DNA of 64,000 nt from NCBI GenBank assembly GCA_045643205.1, contig JAZUKI010000003.1:160001-224000 (forward strand). The letters are read 5' to 3'. Shown here piece after piece: positions 8,120 through 39,196 of this stretch. The stretch comes from Clostridia bacterium (GTDB lineage Bacteria > Bacillota > Clostridia > TANB77 > CAG-508). A program made the position numbers and the translations under genes. The notes beneath the pieces were generated by a model. It saw only the letters and a program-made list of their open reading frames with translations, was not told the origin of the DNA and made no database searches. How positions within the stretch are numbered: the first letter of the stretch is position 1; every line of letters starts with the position of its first letter.

Positions 8120-8584
8120 ATGAAGAACAGTGAAAAATCTATATCAGTCGAAATTAAGAAATTTGATGTAGAAATAGGAAGATACCTATTTGAATTAAAC
8201 AAAGACAGTAAACAACCAAGTCCACTTCAAGGAAGAATAATTCAATATCTAAGCAAACATGATGGTGAAGATGTTTATCAAAAAGACTTGGAAGAACATT
8301 GTGAAGTAAGTAAAGCTACAATGTCACAAACTTTAGATGCTCTAGAGTATGAAAAAATGATTATTAGAAAAGCTGACAAGAATGACGCAAGAAGAAAAAG
8401 AATTGTTTTAACAAAGAAGAGCAAAGATAAAGTTAAAGAGATTAGCAAAGTATTTGCTTCATTAGATAAAAAAATCACAGAAGGAATTAGTGAAAAAGAA
8501 GCAACAGCATTTTTAAATACAATTGAAAAAATGAAAGCTAATCTTTCAAAAATTCCTAATAAAAAGAAAAACGGAGGTAAATAA
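8120..8584 (+). CDS. MarR family transcriptional regulator
   Basis: QKDLE...VSKATMS..L..LE...I.R.....DARRKRIVLT winged HTH. Confidence 0.92.
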   Translation: MKNSEKSISVEIKKFDVEIGRYLFELNKDSKQPSPLQGRIIQYLSKHDGEDVYQKDLEEHCEVSKATMSQTLDALEYEKMIIRKADKNDARRKRIVLTKKSKDKVKEISKVFASLDKKITEGISEKEATAFLNTIEKMKANLSKIPNKKKNGGK

Positions 8585-31561: not shown

Positions 31562-33382
31562 TTATAAATCTCCGTGCCCATCATCATGAAAATTGTTTTG
31601 CTTTTTGTTATCTGAAACATTTGAAGTTTCAGATACTGAATTATTTTCAATTGAAGTATCTATATTAGAAACAGCTTGTTCTTTTTTATTTATCAATGCT
31701 TTGAATTCATCACTATTTAAGTAGTTTGTAATGTCAGTAAGTTGCAAACTTTCTGGAACATTTAATGGTTCTCTTAATAGTTGATAAGTTGCAAATAAAT
31801 ATTTATTAACAAATGTATATAGCGGACTTTCTTTTGAAACTTCGATAACTTTCTTTAATTCTAAGTGTCTACTATCGTAAGTTGTAATCATTGTAGTTTC
31901 ATCAATTGCACGAGAATCCTCTTCAATAGAGAATGCAAAAGGTGTAATAAAATCAACTGCATCAATGAAGTCATTCCACTTTTCTGTATTTCCTTTAGGT
32001 GGAAGTATTGGAAGTGGAGGAATTGCTTTGAATTGATCGTGTGCACTAAATCCAGAAATTCCATCTCTTAATTGATTTTCAGTTTGTAATTGAATTTCTA
32101 CTCTTCCAACAGGTGTTTCTAAAACTATAAATCTTGCTCTATAACCATTTTCATTGTCTTTGTTTTTTTCTTCAACAACTTTGAAATTAAATCTTTGTAA
32201 TACTTTAGAATCTGTAAAAATCTTACGAACTTGATTACAGAAAATTGGGTAATAAACTAAGTCGTCATTAAGTTCTTTATATCTTGCTAAAACAGCCTCA
32301 AAGTCTGATTTGTATTTTCTTTTTGGATCATAAAACATTTTGAAAGCGTGATCAATTTGTAATTCTGCTTTTGAAAGATTTGAATCACCTAATCCAAGTG
32401 CATTTATTTTGTCTAATTTTGATTGAAGTAAGTCTTTCTTTGAATCAATAAAAGACATATACGCAGTGGCTTCAGGAGATACAACCTTTTTGATTGAATC
32501 TAACATTTTTATAAATTGATTATAGTAATCAGATGTTTTTATGTTTAATGAAGAAACATCTGCAATATCAGTTAAAGATTCTTGTACTGTTTTTTGAAAT
32601 TCAGAAATTTGTTGATCATTTTCAAGTTTCTTCTGCATTAAAGGATCATCACTTGGAAGAACCTCATCAGTAGAGTGTAGTATAAGTTTCATACCAAATA
32701 AGTCATTAACAGGTTTATCATTTTTATATGCTGAACGGTAAAAAATTTTTCCTAAAAAGCTGAATTGAGATTTAATTCTTGCAGAAGCAGTAATATGTGA
32801 TTTTGTATTTCTACTAAGCTCAAACATAATAGCATTTGCAAATCTAGTGAAGAATTCTTCAACTTGAGGCATGTCATCTGTTGGATAAATCTTAACTAAT
32901 CGTTTAAATAACTTTCTATAATCTGTTTGCCATACAGTAACAGGTGTATTTTCTGAAAGTACATTTTTTGCTAAACCTTTTTCAATCCCATTTGCTACAG
33001 TTGTATTAATATGTTTAGAAATAGGATTGCTAGGACCACCTGAAAACTTGTCTACAACATCTTTACTATTAGCATTATAAAAAATATTTGCATCTGGATT
33101 TAAAATAAAGTTGTATTTTCTACCTCTATATACTTTAGGCTTATCACTAGTTGAAGTAGATTGTTCTTTAACAGCTTTTTTTAAATCAATGATAGAATCA
33201 AATAAAGATGTTGTTTCAGCAACATATTTTAAATCATCACGAACAAACTCATAAAGTCTATCGGCATTTAAATCACTTAAAGTTGCATCTACATCTTCAC
33301 TTAAATTTGTGTTTGAAGTTTCGTTTATATCTTCGCTTGAATATTCAATTTCATTTAAATTTTTATCTTGATTTTCAGCCAT
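31562..33382 (-). CDS. Divergent RelA/SpoT synthetase-domain protein with large insertion
   Basis: RIKS..S...K (aa 202), DLFGMK (227), NGYRA (412), VEIQLQT (428), SAH (446). Confidence 0.7.
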   Translation of the reverse strand: MAENQDKNLNEIEYSSEDINETSNTNLSEDVDATLSDLNADRLYEFVRDDLKYVAETTSLFDSIIDLKKAVKEQSTSTSDKPKVYRGRKYNFILNPDANIFYNANSKDVVDKFSGGPSNPISKHINTTVANGIEKGLAKNVLSENTPVTVWQTDYRKLFKRLVKIYPTDDMPQVEEFFTRFANAIMFELSRNTKSHITASARIKSQFSFLGKIFYRSAYKNDKPVNDLFGMKLILHSTDEVLPSDDPLMQKKLENDQQISEFQKTVQESLTDIADVSSLNIKTSDYYNQFIKMLDSIKKVVSPEATAYMSFIDSKKDLLQSKLDKINALGLGDSNLSKAELQIDHAFKMFYDPKRKYKSDFEAVLARYKELNDDLVYYPIFCNQVRKIFTDSKVLQRFNFKVVEEKNKDNENGYRARFIVLETPVGRVEIQLQTENQLRDGISGFSAHDQFKAIPPLPILPPKGNTEKWNDFIDAVDFITPFAFSIEEDSRAIDETTMITTYDSRHLELKKVIEVSKESPLYTFVNKYLFATYQLLREPLNVPESLQLTDITNYLNSDEFKALINKKEQAVSNIDTSIENNSVSETSNVSDNKKQNNFHDDGHGDL

Positions 33383-33442: not shown

Positions 33443-33471
33443 TTGATTTTTTAATAGAAACATGGTATAAT
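33443..33471 (+). promoter_or_regulatory. Sigma-A promoter for OLE RNA
   Basis: TTGATT-17-TATAAT with extended -10 TG. Confidence 0.7.
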
Positions 33472-33480
33472 ATATTCCAT

Positions 33481-34013
33481 ATGGTACATTATTCTAGTCA
33501 TACACATTTTATGAGGATGGGCCTAAAAATCCATTAAAGGGCATATCGATGAAGTTTCATATAGTATGCGCATTTCTGCCAAGTTTGCGTGTCTATGTGG
33601 AGTAAAGAATTTAGGAGAATATGTAATGGCATATATATGTAATCCTATTTTCGCGGAGGCTTACTTATTTAAGTTAAACCTATATGTTTCAATATAGTGT
33701 AGCCCGTCTTGAGTGAATATTTTGGGATTGAAGATATTTACTGCAAACAATTTGGCCAATGCGTTTGCATCATGAAATAATATTTGCAAAAAAGACTAAT
33801 AAAATATGTAGTATGTTAAGGAAAACTTCTAGAATGCTTGCTTTAATAGAGAAAGCATTGAAGTCTAGGGATTAAGGTACGGATTTGAGTGGCGATCTGG
33901 TGTCTATTTTTAGATACACTTTTTAAATGGAAACGGCTTAACAGTAATGTTAAGTAGAGTGCAGAGAAATTCAACCAGACCTAAACCGTAAAATTTACTT
34001 AGACTTTAACCAT
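33481..34013 (+). ncRNA. ole: OLE RNA
   Basis: Conserved blocks ACACATTT..GAGGATGGGCC.AAAAATCC.TTAAAGGGCA.ATCGATGAAGTT, GTAGCC.G.CTTGAGTG, GGAAAAC.TCTAG, GGGATTAA.GT; ends can pair; oapA lies directly downstream. Confidence 0.9.
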
Positions 34014-34040
34014 TTTATTTATTTTAACAAGTAAATATAT

Positions 34041-34093: not shown

Positions 34094-34693
34094 GTGAAAA
34101 ACAAAATTGAAAACAAAGACTCAGACAGTTATGAGCTGAGTAAGAAGAATACTGAAGAAAAGAAGAAGAACGAAAACTCAAAGTGGTTTATAAAAGCATT
34201 TATTATAACTTTTATATTGTCATTATTATTTACATATATATCAACAAATGGAGTTTCAAATCTTGATTTAGTACCAGCTATAATAATTTTAATATTAATA
34301 ATATTAGTTGGTATTTTATTTGATATAATTGGTGTTGCAGTGCAAGTAGCAGACGAAGATGAATTCCATGCAAAAGCATCAAAGAAAATAAAAGGTTCAA
34401 AAACATCAATTAGATTAATTAAAAATGCAAATGTAGTTTCAAATGTATGCGCCGATGTTATAGGTGACGTTTGCGGAGTACTTAGTGGTTCGCTAGGTGC
34501 TTTAATAGCAATAAGATTGACAGAGATGTTTGGATGGCCTTCAGATGTTCAAACAATAGTAGGAGCATTAGTTGCAGCGTTAACAGTTAGTGGAAAGGCT
34601 TTAGGAAAAGGATTTGCAAAGAAAAATTCTACAAAGATTGTTCATGCAGCAGGAAAGATAATAAATAAATTTTCTTTTAAAAAAGAAAAATAA
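34094..34693 (+). CDS. oapA: OLE-associated protein A
   Basis: GILFDIIGVAV..A.E..FHA.ASKK..G, VSNVC.DVIGD.CGV.SG, ALTV.GKA.GK motifs; 4 TM. Confidence 0.9.
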   Translation: MKNKIENKDSDSYELSKKNTEEKKKNENSKWFIKAFIITFILSLLFTYISTNGVSNLDLVPAIIILILIILVGILFDIIGVAVQVADEDEFHAKASKKIKGSKTSIRLIKNANVVSNVCADVIGDVCGVLSGSLGALIAIRLTEMFGWPSDVQTIVGALVAALTVSGKALGKGFAKKNSTKIVHAAGKIINKFSFKKEK

Positions 34694-34751
34694 TTAAAGC
34701 ATAAAGAAAATACAAAAAATAAATAAAGAAAAATAAAAAAAGAAAAACAGA

Positions 34752-34784
34752 AATGGCGGTAAAACATGGTTTTACCGCTATTTT
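34752..34784 (+). terminator. oapA terminator
   Basis: AATGGCGGTAAAAC-atg-GTTTTACCGCTATTtt. Confidence 0.75.
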
Positions 34785-34785
34785 G

Positions 34786-34814
34786 TTGACATAATCCGGC
34801 AAAGGTGATAGAAT
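34786..34814 (+). promoter_or_regulatory. Strong sigma-A promoter
   Basis: TTGACA-17-TAGAAT with extended -10 TG. Confidence 0.75.
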
Positions 34815-34819
34815 AAGGG

Positions 34820-35135
34820 CCTATCAACTTTGATAGGGTCTGCAACTAGGAACCTGCAAGACATAAATTTAATATATATAGTTTTTCATAAGTTTTTTAC
34901 CTCCAAGGATATTATTATTATTATTATTATTATTTTTTTTTCTGTGTCCGTTTGCAAGTTGTAGTAATAAATAGGTTCCTAGTTAAAATTAAGAAGAATG
35001 GCCTTTATTCTTTTTATGGTAGGCCGAACAGCCACAAGTCTATAAGACGCAGTCGGCGCACCTAATTTGTGGGATAACAGGTTAGGCAAGATGAGTGGGT
35101 AGGAGGGGTTGTGAATACAACCCCTCTTACTGGTT
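34820..35135 (+). ncRNA. Candidate structured ncRNA of unrecognised family
   Basis: No + strand ORF in the track; own promoter; several stems including a perfect 12-bp 34844-34855/34973-34984; terminal hairpin GAGGGGTTGT-gaat-ACAACCCCTC. Confidence 0.55.
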
Positions 35136-35230
35136 TTATTAGTAAAATTAAATATGCGAAATTTTTAAATATAGAATATTGAAATTCAGACAAAGCGAAT
35201 TATAGAAAATAAAATAGTATAGGATAAAAT

Positions 35231-36454
35231 ATGGATAAGGAAAAAGAAAAATTATCTAAAAGAATAAGAAAGAAAGCTGTAACTTTTTTAACAATTGCAG
35301 GCATATCAATTGGTGGATCAGAATGTGCAGGGGGAATACCCGAGTACAAAGTTGATGCTAAAAGTGGTGTGCCTTATACTGAATTTTATTACAATAAAAA
35401 AGAAAACAATCTAAACAAGAGATACAGAGATTATTATGAAATTCTTTCAACAGAAAACAATTTAACAACTTTTAAAGAAACATTCTTAAATGATGATGGT
35501 TCAGTAGACATTGCTGTACCACAAGGAATTTGCCATATTGATAAATATACAATTATTACTGCATATAATGGAAACAAAAAATACAAATTGCAAAACATTA
35601 TATTAGGAGATGGAAGTGAAGAAGAAGAAAAATTAGAAGATTCACTAAGCTCTGATGATAGCGCAATGTTAATTGTTCTAAACAATGAAAACAATGAAGA
35701 GAGAAGATTAAAATTACCAGATGCAAATCATGTTGGTGGTATTGCAACTGATGGAAAAAAATTATACATAGCTAAAAGCGATGACTATGAAGTTTCAGTA
35801 ATAGATTATGAAAATTTTAAAAAGTGTATTGAAGAAAACAAAAATGAAATTGATTATGATGGAGTTTTCAAATGCGAAAACTTAGCATCTTACATAACAT
35901 ATGATGATAATAAATTATGGATAGGAACTTGGAAAAATAGTAATGTATTGGACTATGTAACTAAGTTATGCGGTTATGAAATTAATGGTGACAAGCTAGA
36001 AAAAGTTAATGAATACACAATTCCACAAAATTCAAACGGAGCTTGTTTCATAAATAGATACAACCAAAAATTATTAATGTTATCAATTTCAAATGGAAGA
36101 TACATGGATTCAATTTTGGTTGCATATAGAATTAATCAGGATAAAAATATTTTAGAAAAACTAGGACAGATAGTAGCTCCATCTTTATCAGAAACAATGG
36201 ATGTTGTTGGAGATGAGATGAATCTTTTATTTGAATCAGGTTCACTACTTTACAAAAAAACAACGAAACATCCAATTGAAGGTTACACAAAACTTAATAT
36301 AGATAAGATGTTTGAAAAGATTCTTGAGCAAAAAGAATTGAATCATGGTCAATCAATGAAGCAAATATACAAAATAGATAAGTATATAGAAGATCCAAGA
36401 AAAGAAGAGTCTGATGAGGATGAAAAATCAGATGATGATGAAAAAGAAAAGTAA
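35231..36454 (+). CDS. Hypothetical beta-propeller-like protein with acidic tail
   Basis: VPQGIC, HVGGIATDG..LYIA and beta repeats; ends DDDEKEK. Confidence 0.65.
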   Translation: MDKEKEKLSKRIRKKAVTFLTIAGISIGGSECAGGIPEYKVDAKSGVPYTEFYYNKKENNLNKRYRDYYEILSTENNLTTFKETFLNDDGSVDIAVPQGICHIDKYTIITAYNGNKKYKLQNIILGDGSEEEEKLEDSLSSDDSAMLIVLNNENNEERRLKLPDANHVGGIATDGKKLYIAKSDDYEVSVIDYENFKKCIEENKNEIDYDGVFKCENLASYITYDDNKLWIGTWKNSNVLDYVTKLCGYEINGDKLEKVNEYTIPQNSNGACFINRYNQKLLMLSISNGRYMDSILVAYRINQDKNILEKLGQIVAPSLSETMDVVGDEMNLLFESGSLLYKKTTKHPIEGYTKLNIDKMFEKILEQKELNHGQSMKQIYKIDKYIEDPRKEESDEDEKSDDDEKEK

Positions 36455-37076: not shown

Positions 37077-37472
37077 ATGGAAAGAAATACAAAACAAAAA
37101 GAATTAGTAATTGAATATTTAAAAAAGCATAGTGATAAACATATGACTATAGTTGAAATTCAAAAAGGATTAAAAAATAAAGTTCCAATGACAACTCTAT
37201 ATAGAATTATAAATCACTTGATTCAAAAAGGATTTGTAATTAAAAAACCATTTGAAAACAAACAAGGTGCTTGCTACAAGTTTAATGATAAAGAAGAAAA
37301 GTGTGATAATCACTATCACTTGATTTGCGAAAAATGTAATAAATTATTGCACTATGAAAGCGAAGTTCTTGAAGAAGTTGAAAAGCAAATTAAAAAAGAT
37401 AAAAATTTTGATATTGATAATTCAAAAGTAGTTTTTTACGGAATTTGCAAAGAATGCAAGGGAGAGAATTAG
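37077..37472 (+). CDS. Fur-family regulator (Zur-like)
   Basis: TTLYR, HYHLICEKC, YGICKEC. Confidence 0.92.
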   Translation: MERNTKQKELVIEYLKKHSDKHMTIVEIQKGLKNKVPMTTLYRIINHLIQKGFVIKKPFENKQGACYKFNDKEEKCDNHYHLICEKCNKLLHYESEVLEEVEKQIKKDKNFDIDNSKVVFYGICKECKGEN

Positions 37473-38462
37473 ATGAAAAAAGTTGGGATTGGAATAATTA
37501 CAGTAATAATAGCAGCATACATAATTGTTGTGGTTATAATTAATATTAATAAAGGCCCGAAAGAAGAAAGTAACAAAACAAAAATAGTTACATCATTTTA
37601 TCCAGTATATGTAATGACTTTGAATATAACAAAAGGTGCAGAAAATGTGGAAGTTAGCAACATGGCTGAACATTTAACTGGTTGCATCCATGACTATACT
37701 TTAACAACAGAGGATTTGAAAAAGTTTGAAAAGGCTAGCATATTTATTCAAAATGGAGCGGGCTTAGAAAATTTCACCGACAAAATTTTAAATTCATATC
37801 AAAATATAAAGGTGATAAGTGCTGCGGAAAATGTGCAAAACTTTATTTGTGAAGGACACGACCATGATTCACACGACAACGAGGAACAACACGAACACAA
37901 TGCCGATGAAGAAAATGTTCATAATCATGAAGAATCACACGATCACGATGAAGAATGTAATTCACATATTTGGTTGAGTATTGAAAATTATATTTCAGAA
38001 GTTGAAAAGATTTATGAAAAATTAAGCGAATATGATAGCAAAAACAAAGAAACATATTTAAATAATAAAAATACATATATCGAGAAACTAAATGCTTTAA
38101 AAATAAAATATAAAGGATTGGAGAACATACAAAACAAAGGTGCAATTTGTTTAGATGAAGCATTAGTTTATTTACTTGATGAAGTTGGAATGAAATATGA
38201 AATAGTAGAAACAGATCATGAGCAATCTTCAATTTCAGCTAATCAAATAAAAGAATTAATAAATCAAATGAAGAAAGAAAACATTACAAGCATATTTATT
38301 GAAAAAGATGGAGACACAAAAGTGGCTGAAACTCTAGCAAAAGAAACAGGAGCAAAAATTTACAAATTAGATGCAGAAATGAATCCTAGCAAAAATTATG
38401 AAGACATTAATGCATATATTGAAGCAATGGAATTTAATTATAAAGTTTTAAGTGAGGTTTAA
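37473..38462 (+). CDS. znuA: Zn/Mn ABC transporter substrate-binding protein
   Basis: VTSFYP, HDY, NGAGLE, His/acidic loop, HIWLS. Confidence 0.88.
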   Translation: MKKVGIGIITVIIAAYIIVVVIININKGPKEESNKTKIVTSFYPVYVMTLNITKGAENVEVSNMAEHLTGCIHDYTLTTEDLKKFEKASIFIQNGAGLENFTDKILNSYQNIKVISAAENVQNFICEGHDHDSHDNEEQHEHNADEENVHNHEESHDHDEECNSHIWLSIENYISEVEKIYEKLSEYDSKNKETYLNNKNTYIEKLNALKIKYKGLENIQNKGAICLDEALVYLLDEVGMKYEIVETDHEQSSISANQIKELINQMKKENITSIFIEKDGDTKVAETLAKETGAKIYKLDAEMNPSKNYEDINAYIEAMEFNYKVLSEV

Positions 38463-38467
38463 TAAAA

Positions 38468-39196
38468 ATGAAAGAAGAAGCATGCGGTTTGCATTGCACA
38501 AAAATTAAAGACATGACAGTCGTTATAGAAGGAAAGAAAATAGTTGATGATGTTAGCTTACATATTCATTGTGGCCAATTAACAATGATCATTGGAAAAA
38601 ACGGAGCAGGAAAATCAACTTTATTAAAAGCAATTCTTAACGAAATTAAGCACACAGGAACTGTGGAATTTGTGGATTTAAAAGAGAAACAACAAAAAAA
38701 CATCAAGATTGGATATGTTCCACAACAACTAAATGTAGAACGCGACATGCCAACAACAGTTTATGATATGTTTGCATCATACATTTCAAACAGTCCAGTT
38801 TGTTTTAGAAAAAATAAAAAATTATATGAAAAGATAAAAGAAAACTTATCACACTTTGATGCTGATAAATTAATTGATAAAAGAGTTGGAAACTTATCTG
38901 GAGGAGAACTTCAAAGAGTTTTATTAGCAATTGCAACAACACCAATTCCTAACTTATTAATTTTAGATGAACCAGTTTCAGGAATAGATGTAAACGGAAT
39001 AAAAGATTTCTATGAAATTCTAGTTAAACTTAAGGATGAGTATGACATGTCGATTGTGCTTGTTTCACACGATTTGAATCTAGTTAGAAAGTTTGCTGAC
39101 AAAGTAATTTTGTTAGATAAAAAAGTTTTAAAAGAAGGAAAACCAGAAGAAGTTTTTGAAAGCGAAGAATTTAAAAATATTTTTGGAAACATGTAA
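38468..39196 (+). CDS. znuC: Metal ABC transporter ATPase
   Basis: GKNGAGKS, IGYVPQ, LSGGELQR, LDEP..G.D. Confidence 0.88.
   Translation: MKEEACGLHCTKIKDMTVVIEGKKIVDDVSLHIHCGQLTMIIGKNGAGKSTLLKAILNEIKHTGTVEFVDLKEKQQKNIKIGYVPQQLNVERDMPTTVYDMFASYISNSPVCFRKNKKLYEKIKENLSHFDADKLIDKRVGNLSGGELQRVLLAIATTPIPNLLILDEPVSGIDVNGIKDFYEILVKLKDEYDMSIVLVSHDLNLVRKFADKVILLDKKVLKEGKPEEVFESEEFKNIFGNM

What the first reader, a model, noticed from the sequence alone, without database searches (positions are those of the whole stretch)
34786..35135. Unrecognised ~315-nt structured RNA downstream of ole-oapA displaying an anti-RBS and anti-start-codon sequence
Seen: a TTGACA-17-TAGAAT promoter (extended -10) and a terminal GC hairpin (35103-35126) enclose a region with no + strand ORF in the track. 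It has a 5' hairpin CCTATCA/TGATAGG, a perfect 12-bp long-range stem AACTAGGAACCT/AGGTTCCTAGTT, and an inner stem GCAA-GACATA/TGTGTC-TTGC. The enclosed AU-rich loop contains TTTTTCATAAGTTTTTTACCTCC, the exact complement of a generic initiation region GGAGGT-N9-ATG-AAA-AA, followed by an (ATT)~8 and T-run. The 3' domain has nested stems GCCGAAC/GTTAGGC and CCACAAG/TTTGTGG. Inference: a trans-acting sRNA that occludes ribosome-binding sites, possibly of many mRNAs; in-window genes at 8584 and 42007 have GGAGGTAA RBSs. Alternatively, the minus strand encodes an RBS-led minigene MKNYIY*. It lacks the tmRNA, RNase P and SRP signatures I know; a divergent 6S RNA is not excluded.
Basis: partly seen in the sequence, partly recalled or inferred. 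Interest (0 to 1): 0.75.

Follow-up and report, generated by a model that had tools for sequence, protein, structure and literature searches.

The report
Orphan structured RNA gene beside OLE
Just downstream of the OLE RNA and oapA genes lies a real-looking, separately transcribed gene for a roughly 320-base noncoding RNA that matches no known RNA family and is found only in a handful of closely related uncultured Clostridia, so it is a new but narrowly distributed small RNA whose function is still a guess.

Summary
The described features are all in the sequence. A consensus promoter (TTGACA-17-TGnTAGAAT) and an intrinsic terminator enclose about 320 nt with no conserved ORF. The stretch folds better than all 100 shuffles (z -4.5).

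It matches no Rfam family. The genome's 6S, RNase P, SRP and tmRNA genes lie elsewhere.

I found homologues at only three other loci: one genus relative and two metagenome contigs. All sit in the same place, after OLE-oapA. They share the promoter, a long-range helix whose sequence is wholly replaced but still pairs, a covarying hairpin, an invariant 3' core (AAGUCUAUAAGA ... CCUA) and the terminator.

In one metatranscriptome assembly, contigs identical to the window cover OLE and part of this RNA. None covers oapA.

The 23-nt anti-RBS stretch and the minus-strand minigene are specific to this window; only UACCUCC is shared. No gene start in the genome matches the 23-mer complement with up to 5 mismatches.

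Verdict: a genuine, lineage-restricted, stand-alone ncRNA gene (about 0.8). The mechanism is unproven. My best guess is a trans-acting RNA that uses an exposed C-rich anti-SD motif (about 0.3). The main rival is a protein-binding RNA. Interest is moderate.

The parts
34756..34778 (+). oapA terminator hairpin. Its T-run abuts the -35 box of the RNA promoter. This is context, and marks the upstream limit of the unit.
   Evidence: The same arrangement is seen in L015, L036 and L037.
34786..34814 (+). Sigma-70-type promoter: TTGACA, 17-nt spacer, TG-extended TAGAAT.
   Evidence: 11 of 12 matches, TG present. TTGACA-17-TGnTA[AG]AAT is kept in all 4 loci.
34820..34837 (+). 5'-terminal hairpin CCUAUCA/UGAUAGG at the predicted transcript start (about 34821).
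   Evidence: It is specific to the window; the relatives have only a 4-bp AUGU/ACAU hairpin there.
34844..34984 (+). 5' domain: a long hairpin closed by the 12-bp long-range helix (34844-34855 / 34973-34984) and the inner helix GCAA-GACAUA / UGUGUC-UUGC. The apical region is A/U-rich.
   Evidence: MFE; 5 of 300 shuffles. An equivalent long-range helix of different sequence exists in the three relatives, with 2 compensatory pairs among them.
34882..34904 (+). Anti-RBS / anti-start stretch ending in CCUCC (34900-34904).
   Evidence: CCUCC is predicted unpaired with P 0.89-1.00. Only UACCUCC is shared with relatives.
34911..34941 (+). (ATT)8 microsatellite and T9 run inside the apical region.
   Evidence: The only blastn matches in relatives fall on this low-complexity part.
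34991..35015 (+). Hairpin Ha (AAGAAGAAU / AUUCUUUUU).
   Evidence: In the relatives it reads GAAGAAA/UUUCUUC, with one pair going A-U, G-U, G-C.
35023..35087 (+). Conserved 3' core. It consists of an outer stem GCCGAAC/GUUAGGC (one mismatch), stem CCACAA/UUGUGG, the invariant AAGUCUAUAAGA, a small hairpin CGC-AGUCG-GCG, and CCUA.
   Evidence: A covariance model built from the three relatives alone finds 34990-35139 at 20-22.5 bits, E 0.003-0.0014 in the window.
35098..35140 (+). Intrinsic terminator: 15-bp stem, loop GAAU, then GGUUUUAUU.
   Evidence: Relatives have terminators at the same place with compensatory changes (4 pairs in the terminator stem, columns 98-109/115-126, changed on both sides).
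34869..34904 (-). Minus-strand RBS (GGAGGU), ATG and the 6-codon ORF MKNYIY-stop. I judge this incidental.
   Evidence: There is no start codon at a usable distance from the GGAGG on the minus strand of L015 or L037 (read).

Best explanation
Positions about 34821-35140 (+) are a stand-alone gene for a roughly 320-nt structured noncoding RNA. It belongs to a previously undescribed family with a very narrow distribution. It has its own consensus promoter, placed directly after the oapA terminator, and its own intrinsic terminator.

Architecture, partly shown and partly inferred:
- A fast-evolving 5' hairpin domain, closed by a long-range helix and carrying an A/U-rich apical region.
- A short hairpin (Ha).
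- A conserved 3' core with invariant unpaired nucleotides (AAGUCUAUAAGA ... CCUA) between small covarying stems.
- The terminator.

Most likely mode of action (inferred, not shown): a stable, abundant trans-acting RNA. Its exposed C-rich UACCUCC motif pairs with Shine-Dalgarno sequences and lowers translation of some mRNAs, as the C-rich-loop sRNAs of low-GC Gram-positive bacteria do. The conserved 3' core would then serve as a protein-binding or stability module.

My odds: real independent ncRNA gene about 0.8; anti-SD pairing as its mechanism about 0.3.
For: Transcription signals:
- The promoter is the best in 3.3 kb (11 of 12, extended -10), and a terminator is present.
- All 4 known loci keep TTGACA-17-TGnTA[AG]AAT.

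Fold:
- z -4.5, with 0 of 100 shuffles as stable.
- The 12-bp perfect long-range stem is reached in 5 of 300 shuffles.

Not a known RNA:
- No Rfam match at E<=10 in 34650-35300, nor in the homologous loci at E<=1 apart from OLE.
- 6S, RNase P, SRP and tmRNA are elsewhere.

Homologues:
- L015 (G018), L036 and L037 carry the unit in the same synteny, OLE / oapA / RNA.
- A model made from those three alone hits the window copy (20 and 22.5 bits, E 0.003 and 0.0014).

Structure is kept while sequence changes:
- The long-range helix is AACUAGGAACCU/AGGUUCCUAGUU here and CAUACUUUUGAG/CUCAAGAGUAUG in L015.
- Within the three relatives, 3 of 36 predicted pairs in the 5' domain and 6 of 43 in the 3' domain change on both sides and stay paired.

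Independence from neighbouring genes:
- In the relatives the next gene (HD-domain, 222 aa) has its own conserved TGnTATAAT box.
- G000 has lost that gene but kept the RNA.

No coding signal:
- The short + strand frames of the relatives differ by frameshifts.
- The hairpin inside them covaries (CAAGG/CCUUG, CAGGG/CCCUG, GC-GAAA-GC).

Expression hint:
- In metatranscriptome run X1 (contigs), a 487-nt contig identical to OLE (33500-33986, depth 10.9) and an 80-nt contig identical to 34973-35052 (depth 28.3) were laid.
- No contig was laid on oapA.
- Only one divergent low-depth contig lay on the downstream gene.

Anti-SD reading:
- CCUCC is unpaired with P>=0.89 in the window RNA.
- UACCUCC or UCCUCC is present in all 4 RNAs, although the 5' domains are otherwise only 38-44% identical between the window and the relatives.
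- It is unpaired in the consensus fold of the three relatives.
Against: - Only 4 loci are known, all from close relatives (oapA 89-91% identical), so the covariation statistics are thin.
- Between the window and the relatives the RNA is less conserved in sequence than 4-fold sites of oapA: 56-58% (3' domain) and 38-44% (5' domain) against 67-75%. Primary-sequence constraint is therefore weak outside the core.
- The 23-nt anti-RBS stretch is specific to the window.
- In single-sequence folds of the relatives, CCUCC is partly paired to an internal GGAGG/GGGG (L037: P unpaired 0.14-0.17 for three of its bases).
- No translation start in G000 matches the 23-mer complement with up to 5 mismatches (3 trans hits, all at exactly 5 mismatches).
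- The best trans duplex of the seed region lies inside an ORF, not at a start.
- The RNA-library evidence comes from contigs of one run. It shows neither strand nor transcript ends.
Confidence: 0.4

Rival explanations
1. It is a protein-binding or scaffold RNA. The conserved 3' core, with invariant unpaired bases framed by covarying stems, is the functional site and binds a protein or small ligand. The protein could be a component of the neighbouring OLE ribonucleoprotein system. The CCUCC motif is incidental.
For: - The most conserved part is the 3' core, not the C-rich motif.
- The invariant 12-mer has no complementary site in the genome with up to one mismatch; the single reverse-complement hit is the same-sense motif on the other strand.
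- The unit is linked to OLE-oapA in all 4 loci.
- Contigs of the RNA library cover both OLE and this RNA.
Against: - No partner has been identified.
- Linkage in four close relatives may simply be inherited gene order. In 13 of 18 other genus loci with oapA, a ymdB-like gene follows oapA directly and no such RNA is there.
- Pairing between this RNA and OLE is no better than with shuffled RNA: best -24 to -26 kcal/mol against -22 to -33 in 10 shuffles for each genome.
Confidence: 0.25
2. It is a cis-acting leader. The RNA and its terminator form an attenuator or riboswitch-like control element for the downstream genes: the HD-domain gene plus the 413-aa gene in relatives, and the 407-aa gene here.
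For: - The conserved core sits directly before the terminator.
- In G000 the 407-aa gene starts 91 nt after the predicted transcript end (about 35140), and no site better than 9 of 12 lies between them. Read-through may therefore feed that gene.
Against: - In the three relatives the downstream HD gene has its own conserved extended -10 box after a strong terminator with 6-7 U.
- The RNA was kept when the HD gene was lost.
- I found no convincing alternative antiterminator pairing; CCUCC against the terminator's GGAGG gives only 5-6 bp (read).
- No riboswitch family matches.
Confidence: 0.1
3. It is a transcribed but functionless remnant. A strong promoter and a terminator were left between oapA and the next gene after a rearrangement in this lineage, and the sequence is drifting.
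For: - The distribution is very narrow: 1 of 44 genus genomes with model R1, and no credible hit in 151 family genomes with R2.
- Sequence divergence is at or above that of 4-fold sites.
- A microsatellite sits inside the RNA.
Against: - Helices are kept through compensatory change or complete replacement.
- The promoter hexamers, the extended -10 and the terminator are intact in all 4 loci.
- The invariant core stands out in an otherwise diverged RNA.
- It is not a remnant of the ymdB gene that follows oapA in other relatives: tblastn E >= 0.64, and ymdB is intact on contig C8.
Confidence: 0.15
4. The minus strand encodes an RBS-led minigene (MKNYIY), and the + strand features are secondary.
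For: On the minus strand there is a perfect GGAGGU, a 9-nt spacer, ATG, 6 codons and a stop at 34869-34904. A 9-of-12 promoter-like site lies upstream at 34957-34929, and a terminator-like hairpin lies at 34837-34820.
Against: - It is not conserved: the homologues have GGAGG on the minus strand but no start codon at a usable distance.
- Promoter-like sites of 9 of 12 occur at chance level here (19 found, 20.4 expected).
- The + strand folds better than the minus strand.
Confidence: 0.03

Closest known systems
C-rich-seed trans-acting sRNAs of low-GC Gram-positive bacteria (RsaE/RoxS type; mode of action recalled from general knowledge, Rfam membership tested)
   Same: It is a stand-alone gene with its own promoter and intrinsic terminator. 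It shows a C-rich motif complementary to the Shine-Dalgarno sequence in a region predicted unpaired. The host is A/U-rich.
   Different: It is about three times longer. There is no Rfam match to any such family at E<=10. It has one CCUCC rather than several C-runs, and that motif is partly paired in relatives. No target has been identified.
6S RNA (RF00013)
   Same: It is a medium-sized, apparently abundant, highly structured RNA with a long irregular hairpin.
   Different: There is no match. The genome's 6S gene is at C10:104369-104551, with 80.6 bits. The 5' and 3' ends do not pair with each other, and the RNA ends in a terminator.
OLE RNA (RF01071), the neighbouring gene
   Same: It is found in the same locus in all four genomes. 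It is noncoding, and contigs of the same RNA library cover both.
   Different: It is not similar in sequence: the only matches are 9-10-nt words, E>=0.14. It is much smaller and far less conserved, and it is absent from the other OLE-bearing relatives examined.
Riboswitch or attenuator leaders with a terminator expression platform
   Same: A conserved core with invariant unpaired bases sits immediately before an intrinsic terminator.
   Different: The downstream gene has its own promoter in relatives, and it was lost here without loss of the RNA. No alternative pairing was found, and there is no Rfam match.

Membership tests
6S RNA (RF00013) | Match to the family covariance model | tested here: not met
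   No 6S match at E<=10 in 34650-35300. The genome's 6S is at C10:104369-104551, 80.6 bits.
6S RNA (RF00013) | 5' and 3' ends pair in a closing stem around a central bubble (feature recalled from general knowledge) | tested here: not met
   The MFE and centroid folds show a 5' hairpin, a separate long-range helix inside the 5' half, and a 3' terminator. There is no end-to-end stem.
RNase P RNA, SRP RNA, tmRNA | Match to the family models, and the only copy in the genome | tested here: not met
   RNase P type A is at C8:48717-49065, 279.6 bits. SRP is at C3:51303-51441. tmRNA is at C10:143407-143764. None lies at the candidate.
Riboswitch / cis-regulatory leader | Lies in the same transcription unit as, and is consistently followed by, the regulated gene | tested here: not met
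   In the relatives a strong terminator and then a conserved TGnTATAAT box precede the HD gene. That gene is missing in G000 while the RNA is kept.
Riboswitch / cis-regulatory leader | Mutually exclusive terminator and antiterminator pairing | tested here: inconclusive
   Only 5-6-bp alternatives were found by eye (CCUCC with the terminator's GGAGG). No systematic search was done.
C-rich-seed trans-acting sRNAs (RsaE/RoxS type) | Own promoter and Rho-independent terminator | tested here: met
   conserved in 4 of 4 loci.
C-rich-seed trans-acting sRNAs (RsaE/RoxS type) | C-rich motif exposed in an unpaired region | tested here: inconclusive
   Window: P unpaired 0.89-1.00. L015 and L036: the first CCU is mostly free and the last CC mostly paired. 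L037: three bases are paired with P about 0.8. The motif is unpaired in the consensus fold of the three relatives.
C-rich-seed trans-acting sRNAs (RsaE/RoxS type) | Match to a described family model | tested here: not met
   No such match at E<=10 or at E<=1 in the homologues.
C-rich-seed trans-acting sRNAs (RsaE/RoxS type) | Conserved mRNA targets with extended complementarity at the ribosome-binding site | tested here: not met
   With up to 5 mismatches allowed, the 23-mer complement gave 3 trans hits, all at exactly 5. The best trans duplex lies inside an ORF. Only G000 was scanned.
Type I toxin or other small-protein gene | A conserved short ORF with an RBS | tested here: not met
   The + strand 44-aa TTG ORF has no RBS and is window-only. 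The ATGAAGAAG-led frames of the relatives differ by frameshifts. The minus-strand MKNYIY is window-only.
Component of the OLE ribonucleoprotein complex | Physical association with OLE RNA or the Oap proteins | not testable with these tools
   Only gene linkage (4 of 4 loci) is available. Predicted RNA-RNA pairing with OLE is no better than with shuffles.

The most novel reading that the evidence does not exclude
The RNA is a dedicated partner of the OLE system. On this reading it is an abundant accessory RNA, encoded immediately after ole-oapA. Its invariant 3' core would bind an OLE-complex protein or a ligand. Its fast-evolving 5' arm would show an anti-Shine-Dalgarno sequence and link the membrane-bound OLE particle to translation control.
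Probability: 0.08. Interest if true: 0.75.

Novelty: new member of a known kind. Interest (0 to 1): 0.4.

Why it matters
If it is real, this adds an undescribed structured RNA family to an uncultured, small-genome (1.0 Mb) Clostridia lineage. In such a genome every retained highly expressed RNA gene is likely to matter. The gene also lies right beside OLE, one of the large bacterial RNAs whose biochemical function is still unknown.

Its practical reach is limited for now. Only four copies are known, all from close relatives, so neither the structure nor the function can yet be fixed by comparison.

Tried and rejected
Known RNA families. A whole-window Rfam scan found only OLE and one tRNA. The permissive scan of the region gave nothing under E 0.27, and those weak hits fall on the oapA terminator.

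DNA similarity in relatives. With blastn, 7 of 41 genomes matched, including G000 itself. All 6 non-self genomes matched only query positions 98-159, the ATT/T-run.

Paralogues. There is none in G000 by blastn. Model R2 over G000 gave only two weak places elsewhere (E 0.87 and 2.4), and its prefilter missed the true site.

Wider searches:
- The core pattern matched 1 of 401 order genomes, and that one was G000 itself.
- A core pattern over genome contigs gave 116 stretches, of which 80 were listed. Only 1 (L056, the same sequence as G018's over the part shown) is a relative. The other 79, judged by eye from the letters beside the match, have neither the core's flanks nor a terminator. The 36 unlisted stretches were not seen.
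- R1 over 44 genus genomes found G018 only.
- R2 over 151 family genomes gave 5 hits at E<=0.05. In all five alignments a large part of the core is not aligned to the model. In three, 53-63 model positions are replaced by 2-11 nt. In L171 and L173, 17-19 core positions are replaced by 70 and 9 nt. L171 and L173 also lie at the 3' ends of 400- and 387-aa open frames. I count none as a homologue.
- G013 has a distant homologue of the 407-aa protein, but both of its contigs end before the region of interest.

Pairing with OLE RNA is no better than with shuffled RNA. An earlier whole-length duplex fold was meaningless.

Targets:
- A duplex scan of the seed 34876-34912 over G000 had no shuffled control, for reasons of time, so I make no claim of significance from it.
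- Its best trans site, C4:39060, is inside a reading frame.

Remnant of ymdB: rejected.

3' core alignment. MAFFT and model-guided alignments of the window's 3' core to the relatives were poor. The core stems are therefore read by eye, and no pair-count statistic was made for the four sequences together.

Expression. Only one RNA run held the stretch. The parts of the stretch without contigs (oapA, and most of the RNA's 5' half, which holds skipped repeats) prove nothing by themselves.

Literature. A search for 'OLE RNA' plus 'oapA' found 10 papers and listed 9 (listing and abstract starts only). In PMC11332333 I read only the passages found for six terms. None mentions an RNA gene next to oapA. 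I made no other literature search, so I claim only that I did not find it described there.

Full report
WHAT IS THERE

The window is G000:C3:160001-224000 of a 1.0-Mb, 10-contig genome. OLE RNA lies at 33465-34029 (+), with 305.6 bits. oapA lies at 34094-34693 (+).

After the oapA terminator (34756-34778) comes the best promoter-like site of the 3.3 kb scanned. It reads TTGACA 34786-34791, a 17-nt spacer, TG, then TAGAAT 34809-34814, matching 11 of 12 positions.

A terminator-like hairpin follows at 35098-35131, then GGTTTTATTA.

The + strand folds at -97.9 kcal/mol, z -4.53, and 0 of 100 shuffles fold as well. The minus strand gives z -3.41. A perfect 12-bp stem is reached in 5 of 300 dinucleotide shuffles.

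The only + strand ORF is a 44-aa TTG frame that runs through the ATT repeat.

WHAT IT IS NOT

There is no Rfam family at gathering score. At E<=10 the only hits are noise on the oapA terminator and on hairpins. The homologous loci give only OLE, plus one chance snoRNA match at E 0.19 that lies far upstream of the RNA in L036.

The genome's housekeeping RNAs all have good matches elsewhere:
- 6S at C10 (80.6 bits)
- RNase P type A at C8 (279.6 bits)
- SRP at C3:51303-51441
- tmRNA at C10

The region is not a decayed ymdB gene.

RELATIVES

blastn of the 355 nt against 41 genomes gave only low-complexity matches on the ATT/T-run.

I therefore followed synteny. OLE is found in 20 of 44 genomes of the genus. 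oapA is found beside it in 19 of those 20 loci.

In 13 of the 18 relatives' loci a ymdB-like gene follows oapA directly. Two loci are cut short and two have other ORFs. Only L015 (G018, oapA 91% identical) has an ORF-less unit like the window's.

A scan of metagenome contigs with OapA added L036 and L037, both with oapA 89% identical.

All four loci share the following:
- The terminator-promoter junction and TTGACA-17-TGnTA[AG]AAT.
- The pieces CUGCAA..ACAUAA..AUAUAUAG, UACCUCC (UCCUCC in L037) and AAGUUG[CU]A.
- A hairpin Ha.
- A 3' core with invariant AAGUCUAUAAGA (one base different and one inserted among the relatives), a small hairpin, and CCUA.
- A terminator.

A covariance model built from the three relatives' 3' domains alone finds the window copy as the top hit:
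- Model R1: 20 bits, E 0.0031, over 34990-35135.
- Model R2: 22.5 bits, E 0.0014, over 34990-35139.

Beyond these four I found nothing credible. This covers 44 genus genomes, 151 family genomes, 401 order genomes by pattern and the species-representative collection by pattern.

IS STRUCTURE SELECTED?

Sequence identity between the window and the relatives is low. It is 38-44% in the 5' domain and 56-58% in the 3' domain, against 67-75% at 4-fold sites of oapA. In so A/T-rich a genome, 4-fold sites are a poor neutral yardstick.

Even so, the helices persist:
- The long-range helix closing the 5' domain has an entirely different sequence here and in L015, and pairs perfectly in both.
- Among the three relatives the long-range helix has two pairs changed on both sides, and the inner hairpin has one.
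- In the 3' domain, Ha has one such pair and the terminator region five, of which 4 are in the terminator stem proper.
- In the core, read by eye, stem CCAA/UUGG becomes CCAU/AUGG in L037 and CCACAA/UUGUGG here.
- Also by eye, the small hairpin CAC/GUG becomes CGC/GCG here.

With four sequences from close kin this is suggestive, not statistical. RNAalifold also offers a competing pairing for the core, AGGCUU/AAGUCU. I could not decide between the two.

INDEPENDENCE AND EXPRESSION

In L036 the gene order is: RelA/SpoT-like gene (-), OLE, oapA, the RNA, an HD-domain gene (222 aa), and a 413-aa gene. The 413-aa product is 56% identical to the window's 407-aa product.

The HD gene has its own conserved extended -10 box after the RNA's strong terminator.

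G000 has no HD gene (no tblastn hit at 1e-8), yet it keeps the RNA. The RNA is therefore not simply that gene's leader.

One metatranscriptome run, held as contigs, contains:
- a 487-nt contig identical to OLE 33500-33986 (depth 10.9);
- an 80-nt contig identical to 34973-35052 (depth 28.3);
- nothing on oapA;
- only a divergent low-depth contig on the 407-aa gene.

DNA carry-over would be expected to cover the genes in between as well. I therefore read this as a hint that the region is present as abundant RNA. The strand, the ends and the level are not shown.

THE ANTI-RBS IDEA

The 23-nt stretch at 34882-34904 is indeed the complement of GGAGGU-N9-AUG-AAAAA. Its CCUCC is predicted unpaired (P 0.89-1.00).

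But the stretch as a whole is not conserved. The relatives share only UACCUCC or UCCUCC, and they have it on the other side of the CUGCAA piece.

In the relatives' individual folds the motif is partly paired to an internal GGAGG/GGGG. In their consensus fold it is free.

No site in G000 matches the 23-mer complement closely: with up to 5 mismatches there were 3 trans hits, all at exactly 5.

The best trans duplex of the seed lies inside an ORF, and that scan had no shuffled control.

The minus-strand minigene is specific to the window.

The anti-SD mechanism therefore stays a reasonable guess by analogy with the C-rich-loop sRNAs of Gram-positive bacteria (recalled knowledge). It is not supported by targets.

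VERDICT

This is a real, independently transcribed, structured ncRNA gene of a new and narrowly distributed family (about 0.8). My odds for what it does are:
- trans-acting with an anti-SD seed: about 0.3
- protein-binding RNA, possibly linked to OLE: about 0.25
- drifting remnant: about 0.15
- cis-acting leader: about 0.1
- minigene: about 0.03

I did not find it described in the OLE literature I searched. In one search I saw only the listing and the starts of the abstracts. In one search I saw only the passages found for six terms in PMC11332333.

Noticed in passing
window 35141-35230, compared with L036 4006-4735: G000 lacks the 222-aa HD-domain gene that sits between the RNA and the 413-aa gene in L015, L036 and L037. 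There is no tblastn hit anywhere in G000 at 1e-8. The words GTAAAATTAAAT, from the HD gene's promoter region in L015, survive after the window's terminator. This suggests a deletion that removed that promoter's -10 box together with the gene.
   Followed up: partly
window 35231-36454 (+): This is a 407-aa protein with a basic N-terminus followed by a hydrophobic stretch. It has no Pfam family at E<=0.01. In the genus, homologues were found in 3 of 44 genomes including G000: G018 at 63% and G013 at 30% identity. It is a lineage-restricted, fast-evolving protein that looks like an envelope protein.
   Followed up: partly
window 31562-33382 (-): This 606-aa protein is transcribed divergently from OLE. 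It has only a sub-threshold RelA_SpoT match (26.4 bits against a cut-off of 27, residues 374-452). It is conserved in the same position in L036 (56% identity).
   Followed up: no
L017, L021, L022, L024-L033 (relatives) and G000:C8:39672-40427: In 13 of 18 genus loci a ymdB-like metallophosphoesterase gene follows oapA directly. In G000 that gene is on another contig (65% identity). The ole-oapA neighbourhood was therefore rearranged in the small clade that carries the RNA.
   Followed up: partly
window 34911-34941: An (ATT)8 microsatellite and a T9 run lie inside the RNA's apical region. The relatives have only a U-rich run there (GGUUUUUUUUCG or GGUUUUCUUUCG). The length of this part may vary between strains. 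The read-laying tool skipped it as a repeat.
   Followed up: no
window 37077-39196 (+): This looks like a metal-uptake operon: a Fur-family regulator, a ZnuA-like binding protein and an ABC ATPase. It looks ordinary.
   Followed up: no
L034 (G051:C25:7604-11147): This OLE locus (218 bits) gave no tblastn hit to OapA at 1e-5 within 1.5 kb on either side. Either oapA is elsewhere in that genome or it is too diverged.
   Followed up: no
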